Shown piece by piece: positions 7,686 to 49,824 of a DNA stretch of 64,000 nt (positions are counted from its first letter, which is position 1; each line of letters begins with the position of its first letter). Position numbers and translations under genes: made by a program. Below the pieces are notes generated by a model, which was given only the letters and a program-made list of their open reading frames with translations, did no database searches and was not told where the DNA came from. Source of the stretch: a phage; the NCBI GenBank assembly GCA_019326865.1, contig GCA_019326865.1_4101.1. The stretch is one strand, 5' to 3'.

Positions 7686-7711
7686 CACCCACCGATTCTT
7701 TGTGATATAAT
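7682..7711 (+). promoter_or_regulatory. sigma70-like promoter (TTGACA-18-TGATATAAT)
   Basis: -35 TTGACA 7682-7687; extended -10 TGATATAAT 7703-7711; 33 nt upstream of CDS 7745. Confidence 0.6.
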
Positions 7712-7744
7712 CCCTTTATATTAATTTTAAAGGGTTATAACACA

Positions 7745-8221
7745 ATGTCAAACGAACTCACATTCACCAATGCACAAAAGATAGCAAAAGACATTATCAG
7801 GGTTTATAAATTCCTTGCGAATGTTACTGAAGATTTTTTAATTGATAAAAATAAAGTTATTAAGCGAAATGGATACCTTTCCTTTATGGATGGGTTGCTC
7901 TATAGTTCAGATGAGTCAGCTTGTAGTATTAGAGTACTTGATACTGTACCAAGTGGTGATTTTATTTCATACCATTTTCCAAGTTCAGATAAGTTCAAAT
8001 ACTACAATAGTATTCTCATAGCAGAAGACTTTGATACGATTGTAATTAACACTGAAGAAGAGTTCTTCCAGTACAGTACTGTGTACCCAGAGAGGATTGT
8101 TTTCAGTTCAGTGATTTACACTACCCTTAAAAATGAACTAAATTCCGATAGTGATCATTTCTACTTGGACCTGAATAATATCGATTGTATTATTGAGTAC
8201 ATGGAGAAAAATGGTTTATGA
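7745..8221 (+). CDS. hypothetical protein, FamA
   Basis: 158 aa; 'EEEFFQYSTVYPE...HFYLDL'; sigma70-like promoter at 7682-7711. Confidence 0.7.
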   Translation: MSNELTFTNAQKIAKDIIRVYKFLANVTEDFLIDKNKVIKRNGYLSFMDGLLYSSDESACSIRVLDTVPSGDFISYHFPSSDKFKYYNSILIAEDFDTIVINTEEEFFQYSTVYPERIVFSSVIYTTLKNELNSDSDHFYLDLNNIDCIIEYMEKNGL

Positions 8222-8721
8222 TTACTACAGAATATGATTACAATAGTGTCCTTGAATTTGCAGAAAATATATATCGTATTGCAAAGGAGTTCAGAAGTCC
8301 TGAGCCGTTTGGTGGTATGTTCGAATACGATGAGTTTAGTTCATCAAAAGGAAGACTTGCATTTACTAATGGTAGAGGTAATCAAATCTACACAGAGTAC
8401 TTTGATGACAATGACTTTCATCACAAAGCCGAATACATTTCATATTGCCCTGGGTCTGATTTGAAGATTCATATTGAAAGAGATATAGAAAATGTATTTG
8501 TTCCATATACTGATTTAGTCTTCATGTCAGAGGAAATGTACTTTCAGGAATCATTGATTCATGATACAAAAGTACTTAATACTATATTATTATATGGTAC
8601 ACTACTTAATCATTACAAATACAATCAAAGATTCTTTTTAGATTTAGTAGTATACCATCAATGTGTGGATTATTTGAATGCAAAATCAGACAACAATTCA
8701 GTACATGACCGATGGTTCTGA
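8218..8721 (+). CDS. hypothetical protein, FamA
   Basis: 167 aa; 'SEEMYFQESLIHD...RFFLDL'; ATGA overlap. Confidence 0.65.
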   Translation: MITTEYDYNSVLEFAENIYRIAKEFRSPEPFGGMFEYDEFSSSKGRLAFTNGRGNQIYTEYFDDNDFHHKAEYISYCPGSDLKIHIERDIENVFVPYTDLVFMSEEMYFQESLIHDTKVLNTILLYGTLLNHYKYNQRFFLDLVVYHQCVDYLNAKSDNNSVHDRWF

Positions 8722-9040
8722 ATACTTTGTTTCAAGATATGTAATAAATCACAACCATTATGTAACCTATATTCCAGAGTACAATCAATTTTATATCCAG
8801 ATTTATCAACATAATGGAAAGAGAAATGATATATATTCAGAAATAAAAATCCCTGATTATAGTTCTTTATCAGAAGAGGAATTGTTTCAGGAGAGCACTA
8901 TCAGTACTGAAGATGTGTACGAAATAATGGAGTACCAGAAGGTACTTAAACATTTTCATGAAACAAATGATATACAAATAGATATTGTTAAACCGTGGTG
9001 TTACAATACATATGAGGTAAATTATGTTAGAAATGATTAA
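8678..9040 (+). CDS. hypothetical protein, FamA
   Basis: 120 aa; 'SEEELFQESTIS'; start uncertain (alt ATG 8705). Confidence 0.5.
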   Translation: MQNQTTIQYMTDGSEYFVSRYVINHNHYVTYIPEYNQFYIQIYQHNGKRNDIYSEIKIPDYSSLSEEELFQESTISTEDVYEIMEYQKVLKHFHETNDIQIDIVKPWCYNTYEVNYVRND

Positions 9041-9437
9041 AATTATGCAACGCTGTCTTATTGACAAATACGGGATATATGGATATCGTTTAAGTGCTCC
9101 TATTGACAAAAATAAAACAACCTATGTAAGTTATAATGCTGTACAAGGGTTTGATATATTCATTAGTACTAATTATCAAATCAAACAAGCTAAAGATGTG
9201 TCTATAATGACCCCTGATGAGTTATTTCAGTACAGCTTAGTTCTTCCTACATGTATCGATTTACAACGTCTAGGAGCGATACAGAAGGTTTTACGCGAAC
9301 ATAAAGTACAACCCAATAAAGTCACGCACATTCCAGAAACAATCTTCAAAACTATAGAAGTAGAAACCCCTGATTATATGTTAAGTGATGATGAATTCTA
9401 CGAGAAGCACTTCCCTGGTAAAGTTTGGAGAGACTAA
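9024..9437 (+). CDS. hypothetical protein, FamA
   Basis: 137 aa; GAGG RBS; 'TPDELFQYSLVLP'. Confidence 0.55.
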   Translation: MLEMIKIMQRCLIDKYGIYGYRLSAPIDKNKTTYVSYNAVQGFDIFISTNYQIKQAKDVSIMTPDELFQYSLVLPTCIDLQRLGAIQKVLREHKVQPNKVTHIPETIFKTIEVETPDYMLSDDEFYEKHFPGKVWRD

Positions 9438-24207: not shown

Positions 24208-24737
24208 AAGAAACATGTATATTATCATTTATGAGATGTAACCCAGTCCACAATGGACATGGTTTAGTTTTTGAAAAGGCCAAAACATTACAAGAACAGT
24301 ACAATGCTGATTTAAAAATTTATCTAAGCACTAGTACTGACAATATAAAAAACCCACTACCACCTGAACTAAAAATGTATTATACAGAGGGATTCTATCC
24401 TTCAGTGCAAGAGAACATCTACACAGAGGACAATCTATTTGATATAATGAGAGAACTGGATGGAAAGTACTTAGATGTTCTCTTCATATGTGGTTCTGAC
24501 CGTATTGATTCTTTTCAGAAAACCCTTGACACTTACAATGGGAAGTTGTATAATTTTTGTAATATAAAAGTAATTCAAGCAGGTATTGACCGCCAATCAA
24601 GTCGATATAGCTCAACACAAATGCGTAAGTTTGCCAAAAATGAAGATTTTGATAGTTTTCGTGAGTTTTTGCCTGGAAATGACGAGAACTTAAAAATTCA
24701 ATTATTTGAAGATGTTATAAAATACATGAGGAAATAA
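24204..24737 (+). CDS. HIGH-motif nucleotidyltransferase (NMNAT/PPAT-like)
   Basis: 'SFMRCNPVHNGH' (HxGH) and 'SSTQMR' (ISSTxxR-like) motifs; ATGA overlap with MTase. Confidence 0.65.
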   Translation: MKETCILSFMRCNPVHNGHGLVFEKAKTLQEQYNADLKIYLSTSTDNIKNPLPPELKMYYTEGFYPSVQENIYTEDNLFDIMRELDGKYLDVLFICGSDRIDSFQKTLDTYNGKLYNFCNIKVIQAGIDRQSSRYSSTQMRKFAKNEDFDSFREFLPGNDENLKIQLFEDVIKYMRK

Positions 24738-25033: not shown

Positions 25034-25313
25034 TGAAATAAATCTTACAGGATATTTTTTACAAGAATCTATGATCAAATTTAGTGAACATTTCCCAGTA
25101 CTGGATGGTATCGAAATGTGGCATGTCAAACCACTGTTTCACACTTTCAGTAAAGAGCACAAAATGTTATTGACTGAAGCGAGTAAATCAAATAACATAT
25201 GTGAAATCAAAATTGGTGTAAATGTCTATAAAGGGATGGTTATCTTTTTTGACAATAACAGCAACTACTTTTATATTGTTAAGGAGCAATACGTTGACAA
25301 ATACAAATACTAA
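25005..25313 (+). CDS. hypothetical protein
   Basis: 102 aa; alt in-frame ATG at 25026. Confidence 0.45.
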   Translation: MIFLETYMCDEINLTGYFLQESMIKFSEHFPVLDGIEMWHVKPLFHTFSKEHKMLLTEASKSNNICEIKIGVNVYKGMVIFFDNNSNYFYIVKEQYVDKYKY

Positions 25314-25902: not shown

Positions 25903-25906
25903 TATA

Positions 25907-25935
25907 TAGCCCGACATAAGTTCGGGCTATTTTTG
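25907..25935 (+). terminator. rho-independent terminator
   Basis: TAGCCCGA-CATAAGT-TCGGGCTA then TTTTT. Confidence 0.75.
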
Positions 25936-25946
25936 TAAGGGGAAAT

Positions 25947-26222
25947 ATGAATTATAAATTTCTACAATATACATACACAATATTATTTGATTTACATCAC
26001 AATGGACGATATATCAACACAATACGAGAAAACACATTTACTCATATGTTATGGATTGATTACTTAGAAACGATTCGTGCATATTTTGTTAATACTGAGA
26101 TAATCATTCGTGGTAAAAAACAGAAGATTCAACATGTTAATAGTTATGGTGGTAAATTAACTCTAACATTTACCGATAATAATACTAATGAAATGTGTTG
26201 TATCGAGTTGGTGAACATATGA
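25947..26222 (+). CDS. hypothetical small protein, FamB
   Basis: 91 aa; 'KFLQYTYTILFDL' N-term and 'GGKLTLTFTDNN' C-term. Confidence 0.55.
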   Translation: MNYKFLQYTYTILFDLHHNGRYINTIRENTFTHMLWIDYLETIRAYFVNTEIIIRGKKQKIQHVNSYGGKLTLTFTDNNTNEMCCIELVNI

Positions 26223-26485
26223 ATTATAAAGATTTCCAATTAACATATAAGATTATTCGCAATCTAGCACACAGCAATAATAGCCCTAGTCTAGAAGACA
26301 CATGCACAGAAATGATCCATACGATTCGTGCAAAGATTGAAGAAAATTTCAGTACTGTTATTATTAATGATGACCATGCAGAATTTTCTGATATAATCAT
26401 TAGACGTGATGGTAAAGTTGAGGTTCAGTACTACACTGATTTTGGATTTACAAGTGTACCGTTGGAGATATTCCCTTGGGATTAA
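26195..26485 (+). CDS. hypothetical small protein, FamB
   Basis: 96 aa; 'DFQLTYKIIRNL', 'DGKVEVQYYTD'. Confidence 0.55.
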   Translation: MLYRVGEHMNYKDFQLTYKIIRNLAHSNNSPSLEDTCTEMIHTIRAKIEENFSTVIINDDHAEFSDIIIRRDGKVEVQYYTDFGFTSVPLEIFPWD

Positions 26486-26787
26486 ATTTAAATGATATAC
26501 AATTCACTTATAAGGTACTATATGATTTGTATGATGCATACCTTGTTAGTAACAAAATAGGTTCACATAACCCAACCAAAGAACAATCATTTATTGATTT
26601 ATATATTGAGTACTTAGATTCTATTGAAAACTATCTCAAAAAGAATTACAGTACTTTTATCGATGGAAATGATACATTCGATTTCTATGGTGTGCAATCA
26701 TATGATGGTATAATCCATGTTCAATTTCAGGAAAGAACCGATAGGGAATTTATCGAAATTAAAGTTGTGAAGTTGGTGAATTTATAA
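26476..26787 (+). CDS. hypothetical small protein, FamB
   Basis: TTG start after GGAG; 'DIQFTYKVLYDL'. Confidence 0.5.
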   Translation: MGLNLNDIQFTYKVLYDLYDAYLVSNKIGSHNPTKEQSFIDLYIEYLDSIENYLKKNYSTFIDGNDTFDFYGVQSYDGIIHVQFQERTDREFIEIKVVKLVNL

Positions 26788-26797
26788 GAGGTTACAT

Positions 26798-27109
26798 ATG
26801 TTATTAAATGATATACAATTTACATACAAATTTTTGTATATCCAATTCGCAACGGTTGATGCTGGTGAATATATCTACAGTGAAGTTTATCGTTCGATAT
26901 GGATAAAGTTTTTAGATGAATTACATGAATATTACCATGATTTGCGTATAGTTCGTAATAATAAAATATACAAATTCCGCGATATTGTTAGTCATAGCGG
27001 TAAGCTACGATTGGAATTAAGTACTGATAGTGATGTTGATTGGATTGGTGTAAATTTACTGGAGTTGGAGAATGAAAAGCAACTTAAAGGAAATACAAGT
27101 ATTTTATAA
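26798..27109 (+). CDS. hypothetical small protein, FamB
   Basis: 103 aa; 'DIQFTYKFLY', 'SGKLRLELSTDSD'. Confidence 0.55.
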   Translation: MLLNDIQFTYKFLYIQFATVDAGEYIYSEVYRSIWIKFLDELHEYYHDLRIVRNNKIYKFRDIVSHSGKLRLELSTDSDVDWIGVNLLELENEKQLKGNTSIL

Positions 27110-27356
27110 ATTCTTATACTTGTCATATGTTAAAGATGAGTACTATGAAAGTGTGTATTATTTTTTATGGCAACATTACCGTACTATAGTAAGAGATTTA
27201 TATCTAGGAAAATCTATCATATACAATGGTGAAAAATGTACATGTACGGATGTAGTTAGTTTTAATGGTTCTTTAACACTGTGTTTCAGATGCGATAATA
27301 ATAGTGGGTCATTTTCATTAAACGTATATCAGTTAGAAGGAATAAATTTTGAATAA
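27072..27356 (+). CDS. hypothetical small protein, FamB
   Basis: 94 aa; GGAG RBS; 'EIQVFYKFLYL', 'NGSLTLCFRCDNN'. Confidence 0.5.
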   Translation: MKSNLKEIQVFYKFLYLSYVKDEYYESVYYFLWQHYRTIVRDLYLGKSIIYNGEKCTCTDVVSFNGSLTLCFRCDNNSGSFSLNVYQLEGINFE

Positions 27357-27549
27357 GTGTCCATATTGTAACAGTACTCAATTAGCTCGTTTCCGTTTAG
27401 ATTCAGACTGGGCAACTGGTGCTGGGGATTTCTTCCCTATTAATGATGATGCGGAATACACCGAAGAACAACACAAAGATTTTGATAAATCATGGCGACC
27501 GGACATTGAGTGCATTTATTGCCTTAATTGTGAGCGTGTCCATGACTAA
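27349..27549 (+). CDS. small zinc-ribbon protein
   Basis: 66 aa; 'CPYCNS...CIYCLNC' paired CxxC. Confidence 0.5.
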   Translation: MNKCPYCNSTQLARFRLDSDWATGAGDFFPINDDAEYTEEQHKDFDKSWRPDIECIYCLNCERVHD

Positions 27550-27805
27550 AGCTGAACTAATAGTTCATACATATAAAATGATATCAAGTACTGAGTTATC
27601 ATATAGTGAAGATAATCCGGTACTGGATTATTTTGTGGAATTATTGAAAGACCATTATATTGGTAAATCACTGAATCTTAATAATATTAATTTCACTGTA
27701 AAGGATGTAGCACCAGGTAAAAACGTACTAATAGTATGTGTTACTTCATCTGATAACCCAGTATACCCAATATCAATAACTTTTGAGATATTAGGGGATG
27801 TATGA
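27542..27805 (+). CDS. hypothetical small protein, FamB/C-like
   Basis: ATG 27542 overlapping upstream stop; 'HYIGKSLNLNN'. Confidence 0.5.
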   Translation: MTKAELIVHTYKMISSTELSYSEDNPVLDYFVELLKDHYIGKSLNLNNINFTVKDVAPGKNVLIVCVTSSDNPVYPISITFEILGDV

Positions 27806-28092
27806 ATATCATTTTAATACAAAAAACATATACTCTACTAATGAAAGAATATGCTAATACTTATGATGAAAGGTGTAGTGCAATTCATAATATGTATGAA
27901 TTTATTACTCAAGAGTACAGGGATTATATATATGCTGCGTTAGTGGGTAGATATTTCAGTACTAGAAAATACCCAAAACTTCAAATAGTTGATGTTTCTT
28001 TTTATTTCAATGGTCATATTACTATTCATAGTTTAGACCAAGATTCAACAACGTACTTAAACTTTTCATTTGATGAGGTAACATTTTTATGA
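27802..28092 (+). CDS. hypothetical small protein, FamB
   Basis: 96 aa; 'IQKTYTLLMKEY', 'NGHITIHSLDQD'. Confidence 0.5.
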   Translation: MNIILIQKTYTLLMKEYANTYDERCSAIHNMYEFITQEYRDYIYAALVGRYFSTRKYPKLQIVDVSFYFNGHITIHSLDQDSTTYLNFSFDEVTFL

Positions 28093-28271
28093 GAACAGTA
28101 TTTTTTATCTGGAGTCTTTTTTCATTGGCAGTACTGACAGTTTCAGGTGCTTATTCATTTTTAACAATGAACACATGGTATGTTAATTTACTATTCCCAA
28201 TTGTTGGTGTTGGTTTAGGATTTAGTTTACATAGTGTATGTAAGGATTACAATGACAAATACAACAAATGA
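28089..28271 (+). CDS. small membrane protein
   Basis: 60 aa, two hydrophobic helices. Confidence 0.4.
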   Translation: MRTVFFIWSLFSLAVLTVSGAYSFLTMNTWYVNLLFPIVGVGLGFSLHSVCKDYNDKYNK

Positions 28272-28536
28272 AGTTCTTATTGCTGAAACAATGAAGATGA
28301 TTTACTTTATTACTACGGCACAGGATTTGTCTTATCCAGTGAAATCGTTACTTAGGTCAATGTATCTTGATATTGTAAAAGAATATTATAAATCTAAACA
28401 CAGAAGCATTATTAGTGTTTATCGTGATTATGAAAGGATTCGTATTTTATTCTGGAACAAGAATCGAGTACGTTCTGAATGTGATCTAGTAGATTTTAAA
28501 TTAGAGAATCTTTATTCTTACAAAGCGGGACAATAG
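28234..28536 (+). CDS. hypothetical small protein, FamB-like
   Basis: 100 aa; alt start ATG 28252. Confidence 0.45.
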   Translation: MYVRITMTNTTNEVLIAETMKMIYFITTAQDLSYPVKSLLRSMYLDIVKEYYKSKHRSIISVYRDYERIRILFWNKNRVRSECDLVDFKLENLYSYKAGQ

Positions 28537-28554
28537 TTTAAATCATGATATAAT
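28527..28554 (+). promoter_or_regulatory. promoter-like element (GGGACA-16-TGATATAAT)
   Basis: upstream of CDS 28595. Confidence 0.4.
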
Positions 28555-28594
28555 AATGGATAAGGAACAATAACTAACACAAGGAGTGTGTAAA

Positions 28595-29323
28595 GTGCTT
28601 GACCGTATCCGTTTCGCTACAGAGATGGCGAATGAATTAAACATGGCAAATTTCCAAATGTTAACATCAGTAATGGCTGAACATGCATGTGCTTATTCTG
28701 TAAGCGGGGTGCAGTGTGGTCAGGAAAATATGTTAGCAGATGTTTATAGTGAAGTTCAAAGTAAACAATATAGTGTAAAGACTTACAAGGACAAGTTTGT
28801 CAGTCTTTACATGAATGAAGATATTAAAGAAGATCGTAAATTCACTGATTTTATTATTGAACGTCGAGTATCGGGTGTATCTAATCCTAATGCATCAAGT
28901 GATGAAGTATTTGTGGAAGTACTTCAAGATATATATGAAAATGAATTGAAAAGTAAGAATCATTACAATGTACGTGAAACTAGCACAGTGCTCTTGGGAT
29001 ATGATGAAGACGAACAATATTATTATTTCCGTATGACTGAAGTTCCATTTGAATATAAATCACCAAACACCACATCAGTTAAAGAATTTACTGAAAAAAG
29101 TAAAAATTACATGAAACATGAAGGTAATCGCTGTAGTGTGAATGGTTATGATGAAAATGGTGTTCATGTTTACGAGTGGATTCATCCTAACTGTCAGACA
29201 TACACCCGTTGCTTGAAAAAACGTTATAATTTAGAAGAGCATGACTCATTCTATTTTAAGGTAAAGAAACAAGATTACCGTCGCCCTGATGATTCTGAAT
29301 TAATGGGGATGGTCTATTTCTAA
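28595..29323 (+). CDS. hypothetical protein
   Basis: GTG start 8 nt after AAGGAG; 243 aa; promoter-like element upstream. Confidence 0.6.
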   Translation: MLDRIRFATEMANELNMANFQMLTSVMAEHACAYSVSGVQCGQENMLADVYSEVQSKQYSVKTYKDKFVSLYMNEDIKEDRKFTDFIIERRVSGVSNPNASSDEVFVEVLQDIYENELKSKNHYNVRETSTVLLGYDEDEQYYYFRMTEVPFEYKSPNTTSVKEFTEKSKNYMKHEGNRCSVNGYDENGVHVYEWIHPNCQTYTRCLKKRYNLEEHDSFYFKVKKQDYRRPDDSELMGMVYF

Positions 29324-29333
29324 AGGAATCGTC

Positions 29334-29618
29334 ATGGATTTATACTCACATGCTTGGACATTCGAACAGTATATTTCATTATATAATGAAATTTACAATA
29401 CTGATATGTCATACTGCAATTATTTTCGCAATATGATCGATGAATATTCAAAGGAATTTAATAGTTTATACCTTTATGTTAATAAAGAAGTTACACATAA
29501 GACTATGAATAAAACAGGTACAATTGATGAAATTTCATTTGATTCCTATGGTGTGTATTTCTATATTACATTTTCTGATGATACTTTAGGTATACACACT
29601 TATAGTGAGTTAAAATAA
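29334..29618 (+). CDS. hypothetical small protein, FamB-like
   Basis: 94 aa; 'SYGVYFYITFSDD'; terminator downstream. Confidence 0.5.
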   Translation: MDLYSHAWTFEQYISLYNEIYNTDMSYCNYFRNMIDEYSKEFNSLYLYVNKEVTHKTMNKTGTIDEISFDSYGVYFYITFSDDTLGIHTYSELK

Positions 29619-29625
29619 AAATATA

Positions 29626-29650
29626 GGCCAGCGTTTGCTGGTCTTTTTTC
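29626..29650 (+). terminator. rho-independent terminator
   Basis: CCAGC-GTTT-GCTGG then TCTTTTTT. Confidence 0.65.
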
Positions 29651-29662
29651 GCAGGTACAAAG

Positions 29663-29965
29663 ATGATCAGTATAGATTTAATTGATAGTACTATAAAAAT
29701 GTTGGCTGATTTAGTGAGACAATCCAATGAAACTTTATACCAATCAATGTATAAAATGTTTGACCGATACATCAAGGATTGTAACATATCATTATATGGA
29801 CTTGCTGTTGATATAGACGATTACTATGGTATTAATACTTCATATGAAACAGGAATTTTAATTGGTATTAATATAAAGATGGGATATTATCCTTATTACT
29901 GTATAGGATTACCAGATAATACGTTGGTAGAATATCCAGCCAGTACTATTAAATTAAGAGGATAA
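29663..29965 (+). CDS. hypothetical protein
   Basis: 100 aa ORF. Confidence 0.5.
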   Translation: MISIDLIDSTIKMLADLVRQSNETLYQSMYKMFDRYIKDCNISLYGLAVDIDDYYGINTSYETGILIGINIKMGYYPYYCIGLPDNTLVEYPASTIKLRG

Positions 29966-32935: not shown

Positions 32936-33166
32936 ATGAAAGTTGAAGTTCAGCATAGTATTGTTCAAGATATGTCTGTAGTTAAATTTCTTTCATTAAA
33001 AGATTACTTTAGATGTATCAAGTTCCTAGAAGAATCTCATTTAAAATGGACTCCATTAAAGTACAGTTCATCCAAAGACACTGCTAGTATTCGTTGTGAT
33101 GAAGCTGTACTCGTAAAAATCTCTAAAAGATTTGGGATAGGTAAAGTGAATGAGCACAGTAAATGA
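32936..33166 (+). CDS. hypothetical small protein
   Basis: 76 aa; AGGAG RBS. Confidence 0.45.
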   Translation: MKVEVQHSIVQDMSVVKFLSLKDYFRCIKFLEESHLKWTPLKYSSSKDTASIRCDEAVLVKISKRFGIGKVNEHSK

Positions 33167-33404
33167 ACTAAAATACTACAACAAAATTGCGGATACGTTT
33201 ATTACTCATTTATATGAAGAATTCAGTAGTATCCGCAAGGAATATACAGGTAAATGTATTTTATATAGTTCTTATCTTAGTGGAAGAATTGAACGTGCTT
33301 ACATTACTAAAGTGAAGTTTTCTGATGATTATCAATTACTATTTGAATTGGATGATTGTTTAGTCATTGAAGCTGATTTAATAGTAGATGTGCTGAACAA
33401 TTGA
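33150..33404 (+). CDS. hypothetical small protein, FamC
   Basis: 84 aa; 'KEYTGKCILYSS'. Confidence 0.45.
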   Translation: MSTVNELKYYNKIADTFITHLYEEFSSIRKEYTGKCILYSSYLSGRIERAYITKVKFSDDYQLLFELDDCLVIEADLIVDVLNN

Positions 33405-34895: not shown

Positions 34896-35153
34896 ATGGA
34901 TAAATTTCACACAGATATAACACAGATAGGTAATCTTATCAATAGTCTAATTACTGATTTAGAAGAAAAGTACTTAGGTCGAAATGTATACGTTGAAATG
35001 TATGAAACATATGGTGTTATTGATATGATTTATTACAGTGCATTGAAGTGTGAAATACGTTTAACAGTATGTTTGTTTGAAAAAGATACATTCAACAGAA
35101 GTACTGCAATTCGTCAGGTTGGTGTAGATGACATTGAATTATATGAGGAATAA
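34896..35153 (+). CDS. hypothetical small protein, FamC
   Basis: 85 aa; 'EEKYLGRNVYVEMYE'. Confidence 0.5.
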   Translation: MDKFHTDITQIGNLINSLITDLEEKYLGRNVYVEMYETYGVIDMIYYSALKCEIRLTVCLFEKDTFNRSTAIRQVGVDDIELYEE

Positions 35154-35407
35154 TGATGTTTGAACAGGACGTAGAGCTATTCAAAAGACATATTGAATAT
35201 TTGACTGTTTTAGAGAATGATTTAACCACAAAATACAAAGGAATTAGAGTCCAGTGTTGGTATGATGACTGGGATTATAAAAGGGAACTTACTATTGACC
35301 GAATTTATTTCAGTGATGGTGTACTGAATGTACATGGTGTAAATGATTTTGGTCATTCATATACATATTCTAATAATGCTAAATTTAAAAGGATCTGCAA
35401 TGAATGA
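35153..35407 (+). CDS. hypothetical small protein, FamC
   Basis: 84 aa; 'TTKYKGIRVQCWYD'. Confidence 0.5.
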   Translation: MMFEQDVELFKRHIEYLTVLENDLTTKYKGIRVQCWYDDWDYKRELTIDRIYFSDGVLNVHGVNDFGHSYTYSNNAKFKRICNE

Positions 35408-35702
35408 ATATTATCATAATTTATTCGATTACATAAAACTAATAGATGATCTTTCTTTTGAATTTCTCAGTACTGAAAAAGTTGATGAACCTCTCTATTA
35501 TGATTGTATTAGTTCACTGTGTTTAGATGAAAAAGAGATATTAGCAAATAACTTACCATCCACGGTCTGTGTAATCAATGGTTCCAAGGCTGTGGTGTCT
35601 GAGGTTAATTTTCATAAATCACTTAATACAATTGTTTACAAGTTCGATAACACTTGGTTTAATCACGTAACTAGTAATATTAAATCTGTGAGATTTTTAT
35701 GA
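35400..35702 (+). CDS. hypothetical protein
   Basis: ATG 35400 after AAGGA; 100 aa. Confidence 0.45.
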   Translation: MNEYYHNLFDYIKLIDDLSFEFLSTEKVDEPLYYDCISSLCLDEKEILANNLPSTVCVINGSKAVVSEVNFHKSLNTIVYKFDNTWFNHVTSNIKSVRFL

Positions 35703-35995
35703 ATATAAAAAAATTATTTGAACAAGTAAATTTATTGTACTGGTGTTCAGACGGCTCAGATAAGGAATATAGTGAAGTTTATTTAGAACTATTTAGAACT
35801 GAAATACATCTAATTCGAAGATACCTAATTGATAACAAAACTGAAGTAAAAGTTAGATACCATAATGGTACTTTAAAGAATGGTATAATTATTGGATTGA
35901 TAGTTACACGAATGTCCAGTAATATTAAAGTTGCAGTAAGATTAATGACTGATGATGGTGTCTACACAATAGAAGCTAATGAGATTATATATTAA
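35699..35995 (+). CDS. hypothetical small protein, FamC
   Basis: 98 aa; 'RRYLIDNKTEVKVRYHNGT'; ATGA overlap. Confidence 0.5.
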   Translation: MNIKKLFEQVNLLYWCSDGSDKEYSEVYLELFRTEIHLIRRYLIDNKTEVKVRYHNGTLKNGIIIGLIVTRMSSNIKVAVRLMTDDGVYTIEANEIIY

Positions 35996-36301
35996 ATGGA
36001 TATACAAACATTCAATAAACTAAAGTACTATGATAATGGTTTTGTATTAATAATTAACGAACTTGATAGTATACCATACGAATATCATAATCAAGTAATG
36101 AATATAGTAAAAAATATATGTGAAGAACTAAAAAGTATATTTAAAAATGAATATGTTTATGATTTAGGTAATAATAGAACAAAACTATACATAAAGAAAT
36201 TCTGGGGAACACATTGTGGTTTGATGGTCGATTTGGGTTTAAGTTTAGACAATAATTTCGAATCATGTTCATTATATTTGGACGAAATGAGAATCTCATG
36301 A
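35996..36301 (+). CDS. hypothetical protein
   Basis: 101 aa ORF. Confidence 0.5.
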   Translation: MDIQTFNKLKYYDNGFVLIINELDSIPYEYHNQVMNIVKNICEELKSIFKNEYVYDLGNNRTKLYIKKFWGTHCGLMVDLGLSLDNNFESCSLYLDEMRIS

Positions 36302-37641: not shown

Positions 37642-37857
37642 ATGATAACATTTTTCGCAATATATGGATTTGTGGTATTTGTCACATTTATAACCAACTT
37701 TTTAGTACTTAATTGGGGTTGTTTTAAAGATGAAATCATGATTGCCATGAATCTCCAAACAGCCGCACTAATGGCTATTATTTGGCCTGTAACGTTAGTA
37801 TACCTTTTTATTTCACTTACTCAAGATATTATTAACAAATATAAGAGAAAGAACTAA
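37642..37857 (+). CDS. small membrane protein
   Basis: 71 aa, two hydrophobic helices. Confidence 0.45.
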   Translation: MITFFAIYGFVVFVTFITNFLVLNWGCFKDEIMIAMNLQTAALMAIIWPVTLVYLFISLTQDIINKYKRKN

Positions 37858-38114
37858 TGTTCAAAACCGACTTATCACATTTTCGATATCTTAGGTCTTT
37901 GGCTGATGATTTTATAAATGATCTTAAGCCAAAATATATTGGTCAAGAAGTACGATTAATAAACTCCAGAGGGTATGGAAAGTATATTATATCGGATATG
38001 TATATTAGTGCAGGTGAGTGGCGTTTTAAAATTAACACTTATCTTAAAGATGGTTCTTTTGCTGGAACACAAGTTACTAAACATACTAATATTATATGGT
38101 TGGAGCAACAATGA
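37857..38114 (+). CDS. hypothetical small protein, FamC
   Basis: 85 aa; 'KPKYIGQEVRLIN'. Confidence 0.5.
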   Translation: MFKTDLSHFRYLRSLADDFINDLKPKYIGQEVRLINSRGYGKYIISDMYISAGEWRFKINTYLKDGSFAGTQVTKHTNIIWLEQQ

Positions 38115-47151: not shown

Positions 47152-49824
47152 TTACGCACTGATTGTTACAGTTGCAGTATCTTTTTTATTACCATCCACA
47201 GTAGTCACTGTAATGATTACAGAACCTTCTTCTAGAGCAGTTACTAATCCATCATCACTAATAGATACTTTAGTAGGTTCATCTGCACTATAAGTTACTG
47301 ATTTGTTAGTTGCTTTAGCTGGAAGAACTTCAGGAACTAGTTGAACTGTTTTAGTTCCTGATAGTGAAAGTTCAGTAGTTTTAGGTGTTAAACTAACACT
47401 GGATACTGGAACTGGAATATTAACGATTACTGATGTTTGACCAGTAACATCACTACCATCAGCGGCAGTAGCGATAATATTTGCAGTACCATTAGTTAGT
47501 GCAGTTACGATACCAGTATTAGCATCTACTTTAGCAATTTCTGGAGCACTGGATGACCAAATTACTTTTTTATTGGTTGCATTACTTGGGGTAATTGCAG
47601 CAGTCATCTGTTTAGTTGCATTCAATGTAGTCAAAGTTTGATCTTTAGGAGTTACATCAATTGCAGTTACTGGCACTGGAATATTAACAGTAATAACACC
47701 TTGACCTGTTTTACCACTTCCATCAGCAGCAGTTGCGATAATGTTTGCAGAACCGTTAGTTAACGCAGTTACAACACCAGTACTAGCATCTACTTTCGCT
47801 ACAGCAGGTTTACTGGAAGACCATGTTACAGATTTATTTGTTGCGTTAGTTGGAAGAACTTCAGCAGCCATTGCTTGAGTTGCGTTAACAGCAGTCAATG
47901 TTTTAGTTGCTGGAGTAACATTAATAGATGCGACTGGAACTGGAATTGCTACAGTTACCGCACATTTTGCAGTTTTTGCTCCATCAGCAGTTGTTACTGT
48001 GATATCAGCAGTGCCATTTGCTACAGCAGTGATTAAACCAGTTGGACTAACAGTTGCCACTCCATCAGCAGAAGTACTATAAGTTACTGCTTTGTTGGTA
48101 GCATTAGGTGGTAGTACAGTTGGTGTTAGTTGTTGAGTATCACCGACTGAAGTTAATTTAGCACTTGTTGGAGATACTGATACACTTGCAACAGGAACTG
48201 GAATATTAACATTTACCACGCAAACTTTAGTAAATCCACCATCAGATGTGGTTGCTGTAATATTTGCAGTACCGTTTGCAACAGCAGTGATTAAACCAGT
48301 TGGACTTACCGTTGCGACACCCTCAGCAGAAGTAGTGTATGAAATATCTTTACGACGAGCGTTATCTGGAATAACAGATGCAGTTAGTTGTTGAGTAGCA
48401 CCTACAGAAGTTAGGGTTGCTGTCAACGGAGTCATATTAATACCAGTTACTGGGATCGTTACATCAATCACTGATTCAGCAGTTTTAGCACCATCATCAG
48501 TGGTAACAGTAATAGTTGTAGTACCGTTATCAACCGAAGTTACTAGACCAGTATTACTAACTTTTGCCACGTCTGGATATGAAGAAACATATGAAACTGC
48601 TTTATTGGATGCAGTTGTAGGAGCAACGGTTGTTTCTAATTGTTTAGTATCACCTAATGTTGAGAATGTATAAGTACTAGGAGTCATAGTGACACCAGAT
48701 ACAGGTGTTTTCACAGTGATAGTAGTAGTATCAGTTTTAGCACCATCTTCGGTTGTTGCTGTAATCACCACTGTACCGTTAGCAACACCAGTTACTAGAC
48801 CAGAAGTAGGGTTAACAGTTGCTATATCAGGTGTTGCTGAAGACCACGTGACGTTTTTATTAGTTGCATCATCAGGAGATATTGTAGCAGTTAATTGTTG
48901 AGTACCGCCAACGTTAATTGTTGCAGTTTTAGGAGAAACAACAACACCACTAACTGGAGTTGTTACAGTAACAGTACATTTTGAAACAAATATGCCATCA
49001 ACAGTAGTTGCAATTACATCAGTACTACCATCTGCAACACCAGTTACCATACCAGTTGGACTTACAGTTGCGACGCGTGGTATACTAGATAACCAATTAA
49101 CACGTTTATCACTTGCATCATCGGGTGATACGGTAGCTGTTAGTTGTTGAGTTTTACCAACACTAAGAGATAGAGTTGAAGGAGAAACAACAACACCACT
49201 AACTGGAGTTGTTACGGTAAATGCACAAACATCCGTGAAACCACCATCATGAGTAGTAACTGTTACATTTGCGTTACCATTAGCACGGGCAATTGCTAAA
49301 CCAGTTTGAGCATCAACTTCAACTATTGTTGGAGCAGAGGAACTATAACTTACTGTTTTATCATTTGCATAATCTGGATCAATTGTAGCTGATAGCTGTT
49401 GTGTACTACCAACTTTAAGTGCTACTACTTTAGGTGAAATAATTACACCATCAACTGGAGTAGTATAATCACGTTTAACCACACGACCATTGTTCAATTT
49501 AATAATACGACCCATATAAAGAGTAGTATATCCTTTACTAATCCCATCATCTACATAAATCATGAATGAATTGTCTTGAACCATATTAATTGCGTCTACT
49601 GGTTTAACGGAATTTGGAATGTCGATACCACGGGTATCATACCAACACATGGAAACTTTGTAATAGATATCACCATTATCATTTATGAGATCATAAACGT
49701 TACTGGAACGTTGACGGTTAATATATAAAGTTTCGGTTAACACCTTACCATCGATTTTAGCGACAGAAACTTTAATACCACCAATACCAAATGGCAATTT
49801 ACCTTCACTAGATATTGCTTTCAT
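47152..49824 (-). CDS. virion surface/decoration protein with nine Big_2 Ig-like repeats (Hoc-like or fibre-associated candidate)
   Basis: 890 aa; nine copies of 'NATNK.V.WSSS.P..A.V...G.VTA...G.A.I.AT..DG' pattern; only minus-strand gene; TATAAATA upstream. Confidence 0.8.
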   Translation of the reverse strand: MKAISSEGKLPFGIGGIKVSVAKIDGKVLTETLYINRQRSSNVYDLINDNGDIYYKVSMCWYDTRGIDIPNSVKPVDAINMVQDNSFMIYVDDGISKGYTTLYMGRIIKLNNGRVVKRDYTTPVDGVIISPKVVALKVGSTQQLSATIDPDYANDKTVSYSSSAPTIVEVDAQTGLAIARANGNANVTVTTHDGGFTDVCAFTVTTPVSGVVVSPSTLSLSVGKTQQLTATVSPDDASDKRVNWLSSIPRVATVSPTGMVTGVADGSTDVIATTVDGIFVSKCTVTVTTPVSGVVVSPKTATINVGGTQQLTATISPDDATNKNVTWSSATPDIATVNPTSGLVTGVANGTVVITATTEDGAKTDTTTITVKTPVSGVTMTPSTYTFSTLGDTKQLETTVAPTTASNKAVSYVSSYPDVAKVSNTGLVTSVDNGTTTITVTTDDGAKTAESVIDVTIPVTGINMTPLTATLTSVGATQQLTASVIPDNARRKDISYTTSAEGVATVSPTGLITAVANGTANITATTSDGGFTKVCVVNVNIPVPVASVSVSPTSAKLTSVGDTQQLTPTVLPPNATNKAVTYSTSADGVATVSPTGLITAVANGTADITVTTADGAKTAKCAVTVAIPVPVASINVTPATKTLTAVNATQAMAAEVLPTNATNKSVTWSSSKPAVAKVDASTGVVTALTNGSANIIATAADGSGKTGQGVITVNIPVPVTAIDVTPKDQTLTTLNATKQMTAAITPSNATNKKVIWSSSAPEIAKVDANTGIVTALTNGTANIIATAADGSDVTGQTSVIVNIPVPVSSVSLTPKTTELSLSGTKTVQLVPEVLPAKATNKSVTYSADEPTKVSISDDGLVTALEEGSVIITVTTVDGNKKDTATVTISA
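47155..49452 (-). repeat. intragenic tandem repeats encoding nine Big_2 Ig-like domains
   Basis: about 255 nt coding unit repeated nine times within CDS 47152-49824. Confidence 0.7.

What the first reader, a model, noticed from the sequence alone, without database searches (positions are those of the whole stretch)
25947..29618. Second tandem paralog family (FamB) of about 90-100 aa proteins
At least eight consecutive small ORFs share an N-terminal 'D-I-Q-F-T-Y-K-x-L-Y' motif (DIQFTYKVLYDL, DIQFTYKFLY, EIQVFYKFLYL, DFQLTYKIIRNL) and a C-terminal 'G-x-L-x-L-x-F/Y-x-D' motif (GGKLTLTFTDNN, SGKLRLELSTDSD, NGSLTLCFRCDNN). Zinc-ribbon and membrane mini-proteins are interspersed. This is a distinct expansion from FamA.
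Basis: seen in the sequence. Interest (0 to 1): 0.55.

Follow-up and report, generated by a model that had tools for sequence, protein, structure and literature searches.

The report
Tandem small-protein family in jumbo phage
A giant E. coli phage carries a tightly packed row of seven to eight related genes for ~90-residue proteins with a predicted two-helix plus four-strand fold that matches no solved structure. The family is real and fast-evolving, is found only in this phage group and its Klebsiella relatives, and has no known function; a role in binding host proteins is only a guess.

Summary
The window comes from an Asteriusvirus-type jumbo coliphage (about 91% nt identity to SP27, UE-S1 and 121Q).

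**Membership**
- Seven small ORFs between 25947 and 28092 (g1-g5, g7, g8; 87-103 aa) are homologous by pairwise, profile and reverse-profile tests with decoys.
- An eighth ORF, g12 (29334-29618), has no significant sequence score. It has the same predicted fold order (H-H-E-E-E-E), its best viral fold matches are family members, and it carries the C-terminal motif.
- g10 and g13 remain unresolved.
- A conserved Zn-ribbon gene, a 2-TM mini-gene and a 245-aa core gene interrupt the array.

**Evidence on what the family is**
- The AF2 model of g4 (pLDDT 86) has no full-length PDB match.
- Pfam, NCBIfam, PADLOC and PDB sequence searches find nothing. PHROGs splits the family into at least six families, all of unknown function.
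- An exhaustive HMM search of 1.84 billion proteins found only 18 small relatives. The two divergent ones I traced by tblastn map only to Asteriusvirus.
- Four remote copies exist in Klebsiella phage RaK2.
- The genes are under purifying but relaxed selection (dN/dS 0.14-0.62, against 0.02-0.14 for most flanking genes).
- Copy number varies from 4 to 7, and alleles are mosaic.
- The orthologues are absent from the phAPEC6 virion proteome.

**Best inference (unproven):** these are non-structural, acidic proteins that bind host or defence proteins. The finding is ordinary in kind but uncharacterised.

The parts
25906..25930 (+). Terminator-like hairpin followed by a T-run, 16 nt before the g1 start. 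It marks the upstream boundary of the array.
   Evidence: Found by the scan. Folds at -13.6 kcal/mol, z -2.8. The stem is conserved with differing loops in all six Asteriusvirus loci.
25947..26222 (+). g1, family member (91 aa).
   Evidence: PHROG 32291 and 21004. dN/dS 0.16-0.62.
26219..26485 (+). g2, family member (88 aa). Its ATG overlaps the g1 stop (ATGA).
   Evidence: PHROG 35943, with a weak hit to 21004.
26476..26787 (+). g3, family member (103 aa, TTG start). It has a long insertion in the loop between the two helices.
   Evidence: PHROG 21004.
26798..27109 (+). g4, family member (103 aa) and the one modelled. The last ~13 residues are a low-confidence tail that overlaps g5.
   Evidence: AF2 pLDDT 86.4, pTM 0.77, with H3-19 H25-46 E50-53 E56-66 E69-75 E82-86. 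The A4 orthologue is 87 aa and ends at the g5 start.
27072..27356 (+). g5, family member (94 aa). It overlaps g4 by 38 nt. It is missing or truncated in several public annotations.
   Evidence: The N-motif EIQVFYKFLY lies upstream of the start annotated in 121Q. A GGAG ribosome-binding site is present. dN/dS 0.16-0.53. HMM support.
27349..27549 (+). g6, a 66-aa four-Cys Zn-ribbon protein. It is not a family member but is always embedded in the array.
   Evidence: No similarity to the family. dN/dS 0.00-0.04 within most of the genus, 0.14 against Turkey5. 127 bits to RaK2 ORF454.
27542..27805 (+). g7, family member (87 aa) and the most divergent of the seven sequence-supported members.
   Evidence: g5-g7 E 0.0015. 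hhalign 65-79%. The top 9 reverse-HMM hits are all family members. PHROG 33961.
27802..28092 (+). g8, family member (96 aa).
   Evidence: The core HMM hits it at 9e-5. Its probable slurp01 orthologue matches the g4 model at TM 0.69/0.74. PHROG 28826.
28089..28271 (+). g9, a 60-aa protein with two hydrophobic segments. Not a family member.
28252..28536 (+). g10, a 94-aa basic protein. Membership is unresolved.
   Evidence: E 0.02-0.3, at decoy level. A weak link to RaK2 ORF453 at 0.0034. A paralog exists in Turkey5.
28546..28554 (+). Extended -10 promoter-like element TGATATAAT upstream of g11.
   Evidence: It is conserved in most Asteriusvirus loci and in RaK2. A promoter is annotated at the g11 orthologue in Yersinia phage fHe-Yen9-03.
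28586..29323 (+). g11, a 245-aa conserved core gene of Rak2-like jumbo phages. It is not a family member and serves as the synteny anchor.
   Evidence: Present in 71 phage records across 9 host genera at 58-92% aa identity. dN/dS 0.05-0.08.
29334..29618 (+). g12, a distant member (94 aa) supported by predicted fold and the C-terminal motif.
   Evidence: AF2 pLDDT 83.2, with H3-23 H25-48 E52-55 E60-70 E73-80 E85-88. Its best BFVD hit is a family member, and another member matches at TM 0.65/0.67. Its DSYGVYFYITFSD resembles g1 NSYGGKLTLTFTD, read from the sequences. It shares a 29-nt repeat with g3. Sequence E-values are only 0.02-0.3.
29625..29644 (+). Terminator-like hairpin followed by a T-run. 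It marks the downstream boundary.
   Evidence: -12.9 kcal/mol, z -2.8. Conserved in all six loci. Annotated as a terminator in UE-S1.

Best explanation
This is a lineage-restricted family of small, mostly acidic cytoplasmic proteins. The predicted fold is an N-terminal two-helix hairpin packed against a four-stranded antiparallel sheet.

The family expanded by tandem duplication in a variable slot of Rak2-like jumbo phage genomes. That slot lies between the conserved Dam / nucleotidyltransferase / u1-u3 unit and the core gene g11. The genes overlap or abut and are probably translated as one coupled operon.

Shown here:
- homology among the members;
- protein-level constraint;
- rapid turnover of the repertoire between otherwise similar phages;
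- restriction to Asteriusvirus plus remote copies in RaK2;
- absence from the phAPEC6 virion proteome;
- no match to any characterised family or solved structure.

Inferred, not shown: the proteins are made early and act as protein-binding modulators of host factors, for host takeover or counter-defence. On this reading the conserved helix-1 motif (I-Q-x-T-Y-K-x-L) and the hydrophobic core form the scaffold. The variable inter-helix loop and the sheet surface would carry each paralog's specificity.

My confidence of 0.4 is for this functional inference. My confidence that the family is real and homologous is about 0.95.
For: **Family is real:**. Same fold for g4, g8 and g12.

**Coding and constrained, but relaxed:** dN/dS is 0.14-0.62 for the members. 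It is 0.02-0.14 for dam, rnlA, g11, u3 and the Zn-ribbon gene, and up to 0.18 for the nucleotidyltransferase.

**Repertoire turnover:**
- Copy number runs from 4 to 7.
- The Turkey5 and A4 copies are at most 43% identical to any window paralog, except for the g5, g7 and g8 slots of A4. The flanking genes are 73-90% identical.
- g12 is 43% identical to its UE-S1 counterpart, while neighbouring genes are 92-100% identical.

**Operon-like packing:** ATGA or 8-38 nt overlaps, with a Shine-Dalgarno motif encoded in the preceding gene's C-terminus.

**Bracketing signals:** conserved hairpins at both ends. Conserved sigma-70 consensus promoters lie upstream at 24526 and 25249.

**Protein properties:** acidic, pI 4.6-5.8 for six of the seven members and 4.5 for g12. 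This argues against nucleic-acid binding.

**Not virion-associated:** phAPEC6 gp380c-gp390c are absent from the 62 virion proteins found by mass spectrometry (PMC7247149).

**Neighbourhood:** it holds known counter-defence functions, namely Dam methylase, RnlA and PseT/PNKP. PMC7247149 notes these counter the Prr system.

**Narrow distribution:**
Against: - There is no functional evidence of any kind. No homolog or structural analog with a known role was found.
- Expression timing is untested. The array has no clear promoter of its own and sits directly behind a terminator-like hairpin. Promoter-like sites are no more frequent than in shuffled sequence (50 found, 46.8 expected).
- dN/dS is below 1 throughout, so positive selection is not demonstrated.
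- Small proteins are easily missed by virion mass spectrometry.
- The link to neighbouring counter-defence genes is weak guilt by association. The wider region mostly holds nucleic-acid metabolism genes.
Confidence: 0.4

Rival explanations
1. The proteins serve the phage's own machinery rather than targeting the host. They could be small adaptors or regulators for replication, transcription or RNA repair proteins. They could also be partners of the invariably co-located Zn-ribbon protein g6 or of the core protein g11, with paralogs tuned to different phage partners.
For: The Zn-ribbon gene is embedded in the array in every Asteriusvirus locus and in RaK2, where it is flanked by family-like ORFs 453 and 456. 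g12 appears to be co-transcribed with core gene g11, between a conserved -10 element and a terminator. The conserved N-terminal helix motif across all paralogs could be a shared docking site.
Against: The presumed phage partners are highly conserved (dN/dS 0.00-0.14), while the family turns over quickly and varies in copy number. GAP32 and Munch keep g11 and the flanking genes but have no detectable family member or Zn-ribbon in the slot. The family is therefore dispensable for the core machinery.
Confidence: 0.2
2. The proteins are nucleic-acid-binding regulators, for example translational repressors or small DNA- or RNA-binding factors that use the beta-sheet subdomain.
For: The C-terminal sheet of the g12 model matches many ~50-residue beta domains at TM 0.4-0.47, including a DUF2158 protein and an SH3-C-like domain. 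g10 and g1 are basic or neutral.
Against: Six of the seven members, and g12, are acidic with net charge -1 to -8. No helix-turn-helix, Zn or known RNA-binding signature was found. The beta-domain matches are partial and unannotated.
Confidence: 0.1
3. The array acts in superinfection exclusion or an envelope-associated function together with the interspersed 2-TM mini-protein g9.
For: A conserved membrane mini-protein sits inside the array. Small early membrane and cytoplasmic pairs of this sort occur in T-even phages; this comes from my general knowledge and was not tested here.
Against: Family members have no signal peptide or hydrophobic segment (GRAVY -0.4 to +0.15). g9 is only one of twelve genes. 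There is no homology to known exclusion proteins.
Confidence: 0.08
4. The array is largely neutral duplicated ORFan material with little current function.
For: Copy number is variable. Salmonella phage records show truncated or chimeric copies (P0031, P0035, P0040). Annotations often omit members.
Against: All copies keep intact ORFs, ribosome-binding sites and dN/dS well below 1 across genomes with dS up to above 1. The fold-defining residues are conserved between paralogs only 15-28% identical.
Confidence: 0.05

Closest known systems
PHROG families 21004, 32291, 35943, 33961, 28826 and 32812 (all of unknown function)
   Same: These are the existing database bins for these exact proteins. g3 and g4 fall in 21004, g1 in 32291, g2 in 35943, g7 in 33961, g8 in 28826 and g12 in 32812. 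Weak cross-hits between bins already appear for g1, g2, g4 and g5.
   Different: PHROGs treats them as at least six unrelated families. Here they are shown to be one family or fold. No function is attached to any of the bins.
[quoted passage not shown]
   Same: The phenomenon is the same: lineage-specific duplication of ORFan genes in a giant myovirus. Four remote copies of this family are in RaK2 itself.
   Different: Those papers give counts, not this family. I found no description of its membership, fold, boundaries or turnover in the held literature.
Variable accessory-gene slots between conserved core genes in T4-like phages (from my own knowledge, not tested here)
   Same: A slot between conserved core genes holds different small early genes in different relatives. 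Dam ... u3 | slot | g11 ... RnlA-PseT is syntenic in RaK2, GAP32 and Munch, with different slot contents.
   Different: Here the slot is filled mainly by one family amplified in tandem rather than by unrelated ORFans.
Tandem amplification of host-antagonist genes in other viruses, such as poxvirus gene 'accordions' or phage anti-defence gene clusters (from my own knowledge; a functional analogy only)
   Same: Tandem copies, fast divergence, copy-number differences between close relatives, and small acidic non-virion proteins.
   Different: No target, no anti-defence activity and no positive selection have been shown. The paralogs are old (15-28% identity), not recent amplifications.
Small beta-domain proteins (DUF2158-like, SH3-C-like) hit by the C-terminal half of the g12 model
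   Same: The four-strand meander superposes on ~46-57 residues at TM 0.41-0.47 normalised to the query.
   Different: The matches cover only half of the protein, the targets are uncharacterised, and the g4 model did not retrieve them. The full two-helix plus four-strand arrangement matched only members of this family and RaK2 proteins.

Membership tests
This family itself (working name FamB; two helices plus four strands) | Significant sequence similarity to the g1-g5 core profile | tested here: met
   g1-g5, g7 and g8 meet it. g10, g12 and g13 do not, with E 0.02-0.9, close to the best decoys.
This family itself (working name FamB; two helices plus four strands) | Predicted fold H-H-E-E-E-E, with full-length structural matches to other members | tested here: met
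   Two members were modelled: g4 (pLDDT 86.4) and g12 (pLDDT 83.2). Both hit the slurp01 96-aa protein and A0A411BGM0 at TM 0.65-0.76.
Any Pfam / NCBIfam family | Score above the curated cut-off | tested here: not met
   The best Pfam hits score 10-17 bits against cut-offs of 21-30. The only NCBIfam hit is a 13.9-bit chance match against a cut-off of 148.
Any protein with a solved structure | Sequence-profile or fold match covering both the helical and the sheet parts | tested here: not met
Known anti-phage defence proteins (PADLOC) | HMM match | tested here: not met
   Only two marginal hits at about 14 bits.
Known anti-defence proteins (anti-CRISPR, anti-restriction, anti-CBASS and similar) | Homology to a characterised inhibitor, or a demonstrated inhibition of a defence system | not testable with these tools
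   No anti-defence library is available here. Nothing annotated as such appeared in the PHROGs, PDB or BFVD hits.
Virion (structural) proteins | Detection in purified particles | tested here: not met
   The phAPEC6 orthologues gp381c-gp389c are not among the 62 proteins identified by mass spectrometry (PMC7247149 Table 1). This is weak negative evidence for proteins of about 10 kDa.
PKD-domain repeat proteins (the two giant hits P0052 and P0053) | Domain-level significant similarity | tested here: not met
   Each repeat scores only 5-13 bits over the beta-hairpin motif. The whole-protein E-value is inflated by 6-10 repeats.

The most novel reading that the evidence does not exclude
The array is a repertoire of inhibitors built on a previously unseen small fold. 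Each paralog would neutralise a different host defence or host-takeover target through its variable loop and sheet surface. The invariant helix-1 motif would dock all of them onto one common partner, possibly the co-located Zn-ribbon protein. Repertoire turnover between phages would then track the defence content of their E. coli and Salmonella hosts.
Probability: 0.2. Interest if true: 0.7.

Novelty: new member of a known kind. Interest (0 to 1): 0.35.

Why it matters
More than 80% of jumbo phage genes have no known function, and these phages are being developed for therapy. This analysis merges at least six unlinked "unknown" PHROG bins into one family with a confident fold model, defined boundaries and a clear evolutionary signature: fast turnover inside a conserved genomic frame. 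That gives a compact, testable target set. The whole ~2.2 kb g1-g8 block could be deleted or expressed to screen for host-range, defence-evasion or toxicity phenotypes. If the proteins do bind host factors, they would add a new scaffold to the catalogue of phage counter-defence or takeover proteins. If they do not, this remains an ordinary example of ORFan duplication.

Tried and rejected
- **Word-indexed homolog search with g4 alone** found only close orthologues.
- **hhalign on shallow orthologue alignments** was too insensitive. It scored g8 at 0-7% even though HMM and fold evidence support it, so I did not use it to exclude g10, g12 or g13.
- **The two giant-protein hits** from the exhaustive search were rejected as PKD-like repeat artefacts.
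- **Adding the g12 group to the profile** did not recruit g10 or g13, and it let one decoy pass the 1e-3 threshold. I stopped extending the family at that point.
- **A DNA-level explanation for the conserved 5' ends** (embedded promoter or recombination site) was considered and judged unlikely. The codons for I-Q-x-T-Y-K vary at synonymous sites (TAT/TAC, ACA/ACT, AAA/AAG), and the -10-like matches arise from the coding sequence.
- **The promoter scan** is uninformative in this AT-rich DNA (50 sites found, 46.8 expected).
- **Literature searches** for expression data or a description of the family found nothing. One search was badly framed and returned irrelevant papers.
- **Weak Pfam hits** (KTSC, Cwp8_D2, KH and others) were dismissed as sub-threshold and inconsistent between paralogs.

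Full report
**Source and gene models**

The window is low in GC (about 32%) and almost entirely + strand coding. The region 25900-29700 matches 36 phage records at 82-92% nt identity. Every record I opened that carries a taxonomy line is classified as Asteriusvirus. These are jumbo E. coli and Salmonella myoviruses of about 350 kb, such as SP27, UE-S1, 121Q, PBECO4 and phAPEC6.

I set the gene models from ORFs, ribosome-binding sites and the annotations of UE-S1 and 121Q:

| Gene | Coordinates | Note |
|---|---|---|
| g1 | 25947-26222 | |
| g2 | 26219-26485 | |
| g3 | 26476-26787 | TTG start |
| g4 | 26798-27109 | |
| g5 | 27072-27356 | |
| g6 | 27349-27549 | four-Cys Zn-ribbon |
| g7 | 27542-27805 | |
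| g8 | 27802-28092 | |
| g9 | 28089-28271 | two hydrophobic segments |
| g10 | 28252-28536 | |
| g11 | 28586-29323 | 245 aa |
| g12 | 29334-29618 | |
| g13 | 29663-29965 | |

Most junctions are ATGA overlaps or overlaps of 8-38 nt. The Shine-Dalgarno motif of each gene lies in the codons for the previous gene's C-terminal "L-x-x-L" motif. The block therefore looks like a translationally coupled operon.

**Is the family real?**

- phmmer of each candidate against all 355 ORFs of the window (both strands) links g1-g5 to each other at E 1e-8 to 1e-3. It links g7 to g5 at 0.0015. g8 and g10 reach only 0.07-0.2, and g12 and g13 link to nothing.
- An HMM of g1-g5 recruits g8 at 9e-5, with the next ORF at 0.017.
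- I fetched the syntenic arrays of six relatives: UE-S1, 121Q, A4, ph0011, Turkey5 and WPEC5. An iterated HMM search with reversed and shuffled decoys converges on the g1-g5 and g8 slots, 40 ORFs in all. The best decoys sit at 0.1-0.3, and g7 orthologues at 0.02-0.36.
- Reverse searches settle g7 and g8. For the g7 HMM, the nine best non-self hits are all family members (4e-6 to 8e-3). For the g8 HMM, seven of the nine best are.
- Profile-profile comparison gives 65-99% for nine of the ten g1-g5 pairs (g2-g5 scores 1%). It gives 79% for g4-g7 and 65% for g5-g7.
They never occur together in 200 shuffles. This is a post-hoc pattern.
- The family HMM finds nothing else in the window above decoy level.

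**Structure**

AlphaFold2 on g4, with a 38-sequence alignment of paralogs and orthologues, gives pLDDT 86.4 and pTM 0.77. The elements are H3-19, H25-46, E50-53, E56-66, E69-75 and E82-86.

- The profile search against PDB sequences finds nothing.
- Foldseek against BFVD returns family members. One is a 96-aa vB_Eco_slurp01 protein, 16% identical, at TM 0.69/0.74. It is most likely the g8 orthologue P0011.
- An 89-aa RaK2 protein also matches, at TM 0.58/0.65.

g12 had only weak g1-type sequence hits, so I modelled it with its own orthologues. The result is pLDDT 83.2 with H3-23, H25-48, E52-55, E60-70, E73-80 and E85-88. That is the same element order and nearly the same lengths as g4. Its best hit in all of BFVD is the same slurp01 family member (E 3.4e-4, TM 0.66/0.65 over 97 columns). 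Another member matches at TM 0.65/0.67.

g12 also carries the C-terminal motif: DSYGVYFYITFSD against g1 NSYGGKLTLTFTD. It shares a 29-nt stretch with g3 at 79% identity. I count g12 as a distant member.

g10 and g13 stay unresolved. Their E-values are 0.02-0.9, close to the best decoys, even after adding the RaK2 and g12 sequences to the profile.

**Distribution**

- tblastn of g4 finds 36 phage records, all named Escherichia or Salmonella phages.
- A profile search of 5.8 billion clustered proteins returns 40 clusters. All the named ones come from these phages, or from E. coli assemblies that contain them.
- An exhaustive HMM search of 1.84 billion representatives returns 18 small proteins and two giant ones.
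- The giant hits are artefacts. Each PKD-like repeat scores 5-13 bits on the beta-hairpin motif.
- Two divergent representatives, P0054 and P0048, map by tblastn only to Asteriusvirus.

The 245-aa g11 is a core gene in 71 Rak2-like jumbo phages from nine host genera. It anchors a conserved frame: Dam, nucleotidyltransferase, u1, (u2), u3, a variable slot, g11, then RnlA and PseT.

- In RaK2 the slot holds the Zn-ribbon orthologue (127 bits) flanked by ORF453 and ORF456. A search restricted to these loci places ORF453, ORF456 and two further ORFs (469 and 478) in the family, with no decoy below 1e-3.
- GAP32 and Munch have other genes in the slot and no detectable member.

**Evolutionary behaviour**

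| Measure | Family members | Flanking genes |
|---|---|---|
| Pairwise dN/dS (Nei-Gojobori) | 0.14-0.62 | 0.02-0.14 for dam, rnlA, g11, u3 and the Zn-ribbon gene; up to 0.18 for the nucleotidyltransferase |
| Copy number by sequence | 7 in the window, UE-S1, 121Q and A4; 6 in ph0011 and WPEC5; 4 in Turkey5 | not applicable |

- The first three copies in A4 are all g1-like at 32-40% identity. The Turkey5 copies are at most 36% identical to any window paralog. The flanking genes in those phages remain 73-90% identical.
- Identity is mosaic. g5 is 96% identical to WPEC5 and 94% to A4, but 59% to ph0011. g12 is 43% identical to UE-S1 although its neighbours are 92-100% identical.
- The genes are therefore functional coding sequences whose repertoire turns over much faster than the surrounding genome.

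**Transcription context**

Each folds at about -13 kcal/mol with z -2.8.
- A perfect sigma-70 consensus promoter at 24526-24554 is conserved in all six Asteriusvirus loci and in RaK2, and Munch has a comparable match at the corresponding position. An 11/12 match lies at 25249-25277. Both are upstream of u1-u3.
- An extended -10 element, TGATATAAT at 28546-28554, precedes g11 in most of the Asteriusvirus loci and in RaK2.
- No clear promoter lies between the first hairpin and g1, which are 16 nt apart. g1-g10 would therefore be expressed by read-through or from weak internal promoters.
- Overall promoter-like counts do not exceed the shuffled expectation. Expression timing is not established.

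**Function**

Nothing in Pfam, NCBIfam, PADLOC, PHROGs annotations, PDB or BFVD assigns a role.

The indirect evidence is as follows:
- The proteins are acidic: pI 4.6-5.8 for six of the seven members and 4.5 for g12.
- They have no hydrophobic segments.
- The orthologues are absent from the phAPEC6 virion proteome.
- The neighbourhood includes Dam, RnlA and PseT/PNKP. PMC7247149 links these to protection against restriction and the Prr system.
- The repertoire turns over rapidly.
- The conserved positions are the helix-1 motif, core hydrophobic residues, and a D and G-x-L in the third strand. The inter-helix loop carries length differences of up to about 14 residues.

I take the most likely role to be non-structural, protein-binding modulators of host factors, for takeover or counter-defence. 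This is an inference at about 0.4 confidence. Alternatives are a role with phage partners such as the co-located Zn-ribbon protein, nucleic-acid binding, an envelope or exclusion function, or near-neutral ORFan material.

**Novelty**

Paralog families in these phages are known in general terms. [quoted passage not shown] I found no description of this family in the literature I could search.

All members are annotated as hypothetical proteins and are split over at least six PHROGs. g5 is missing or truncated in several records.

The finding is a real, well-delimited and uncharacterised family with a fold that has no solved counterpart. It belongs to a familiar category, lineage-specific expansion of small accessory genes in a variable phage slot. 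I score interest at 0.35.

Noticed in passing
At least 14 ORFs of 113-192 aa are linked by phmmer at E<1e-4. It is unrelated in sequence to the family studied here.
   Followed up: partly
window 24526-24554 (+), inside the 3' end of the nucleotidyltransferase gene: A perfect 12/12 sigma-70 consensus promoter (TTGACA-17-TATAAT). It is conserved in all six Asteriusvirus loci and in RaK2, and Munch has a comparable match at the corresponding position. It is probably a strong early promoter for u1-u3. A second match of 11/12 lies at 25249-25277.
   Followed up: partly
window 27072-27356 (g5); L001 4173-4457; L007: g5 is not annotated at all in UE-S1 and phAPEC6. In 121Q it is annotated with a start 48 nt too far downstream, apparently because it overlaps the 3' extension of g4. 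The conserved N-terminal motif and the GGAG site support the longer ORF.
   Followed up: yes
P0035, P0031, P0040 (Salmonella phages SD-6_S16, SD-15_S21, SD-1_S14): These records show chimeric or truncated copies. P0035 joins the first ~65 residues of a g2-type protein to pieces of a g3-type protein. This could be recombination between tandem paralogs, or an assembly error in these shorter (310-326 kb) records.
   Followed up: no
window 29334-29618 versus L001 6429-6710: There is an allele replacement at g12. It is only 43% identical in protein to UE-S1 and 121Q, while adjacent genes are 92-100% identical. The closest allele in the protein collection is a metagenomic cluster (P0058, 97%).
   Followed up: partly
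L004 (ph0011) 7781-9265: ph0011 has an extra 494-aa ORF inserted between g10 and g11 that is absent from the window and the other loci. This shows that the same slot accepts insertions.
   Followed up: no
window 28586-29323 (g11): This 245-aa protein of unknown function is conserved at 58-92% identity in 71 jumbo phage records across nine host genera. One record (WPEC3) labels it 'RNA ligase I'. Pfam finds nothing.
   Followed up: partly
window 27349-27549 (g6): The 66-aa Zn-ribbon protein is almost invariant across the genus (dN/dS 0.00-0.04, 0.14 against Turkey5) and is conserved in RaK2. It always sits inside the fast-evolving array, which makes it a possible functional partner.
   Followed up: partly
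L005 (Turkey5) 7699-7968 and 7969-8247: Turkey5 carries two tandem g10-type genes (E 5.5e-9 between them). g10 is therefore itself subject to duplication.
   Followed up: no
P0002, P0017, P0020, P0027, P0033 (sources named Escherichia coli): Several family proteins are deposited as E. coli proteins on contigs of up to ~350 kb. Whole jumbo-phage genomes appear to be present in bacterial isolate assemblies, through a carrier state or contamination.
   Followed up: no
window 47152-49824 (-): This is one of the few minus-strand genes in the window. It encodes an 890-aa protein with nine Big_2 Ig-like domains, which may relate to the hair-like fibres described for these phages.
   Followed up: no
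window 33150-33404, 34896-35153, 35153-35407, 35699-35995, 35996-36301, 37857-38114 (+): Several other ~85-100 aa ORFs downstream of RnlA/PseT score in the twilight zone (E 0.01-1) with the family or g12 profiles. Real ORFs outnumber decoys in that zone although decoys are five times more numerous. They may be further remote members of the same fold.
   Followed up: no
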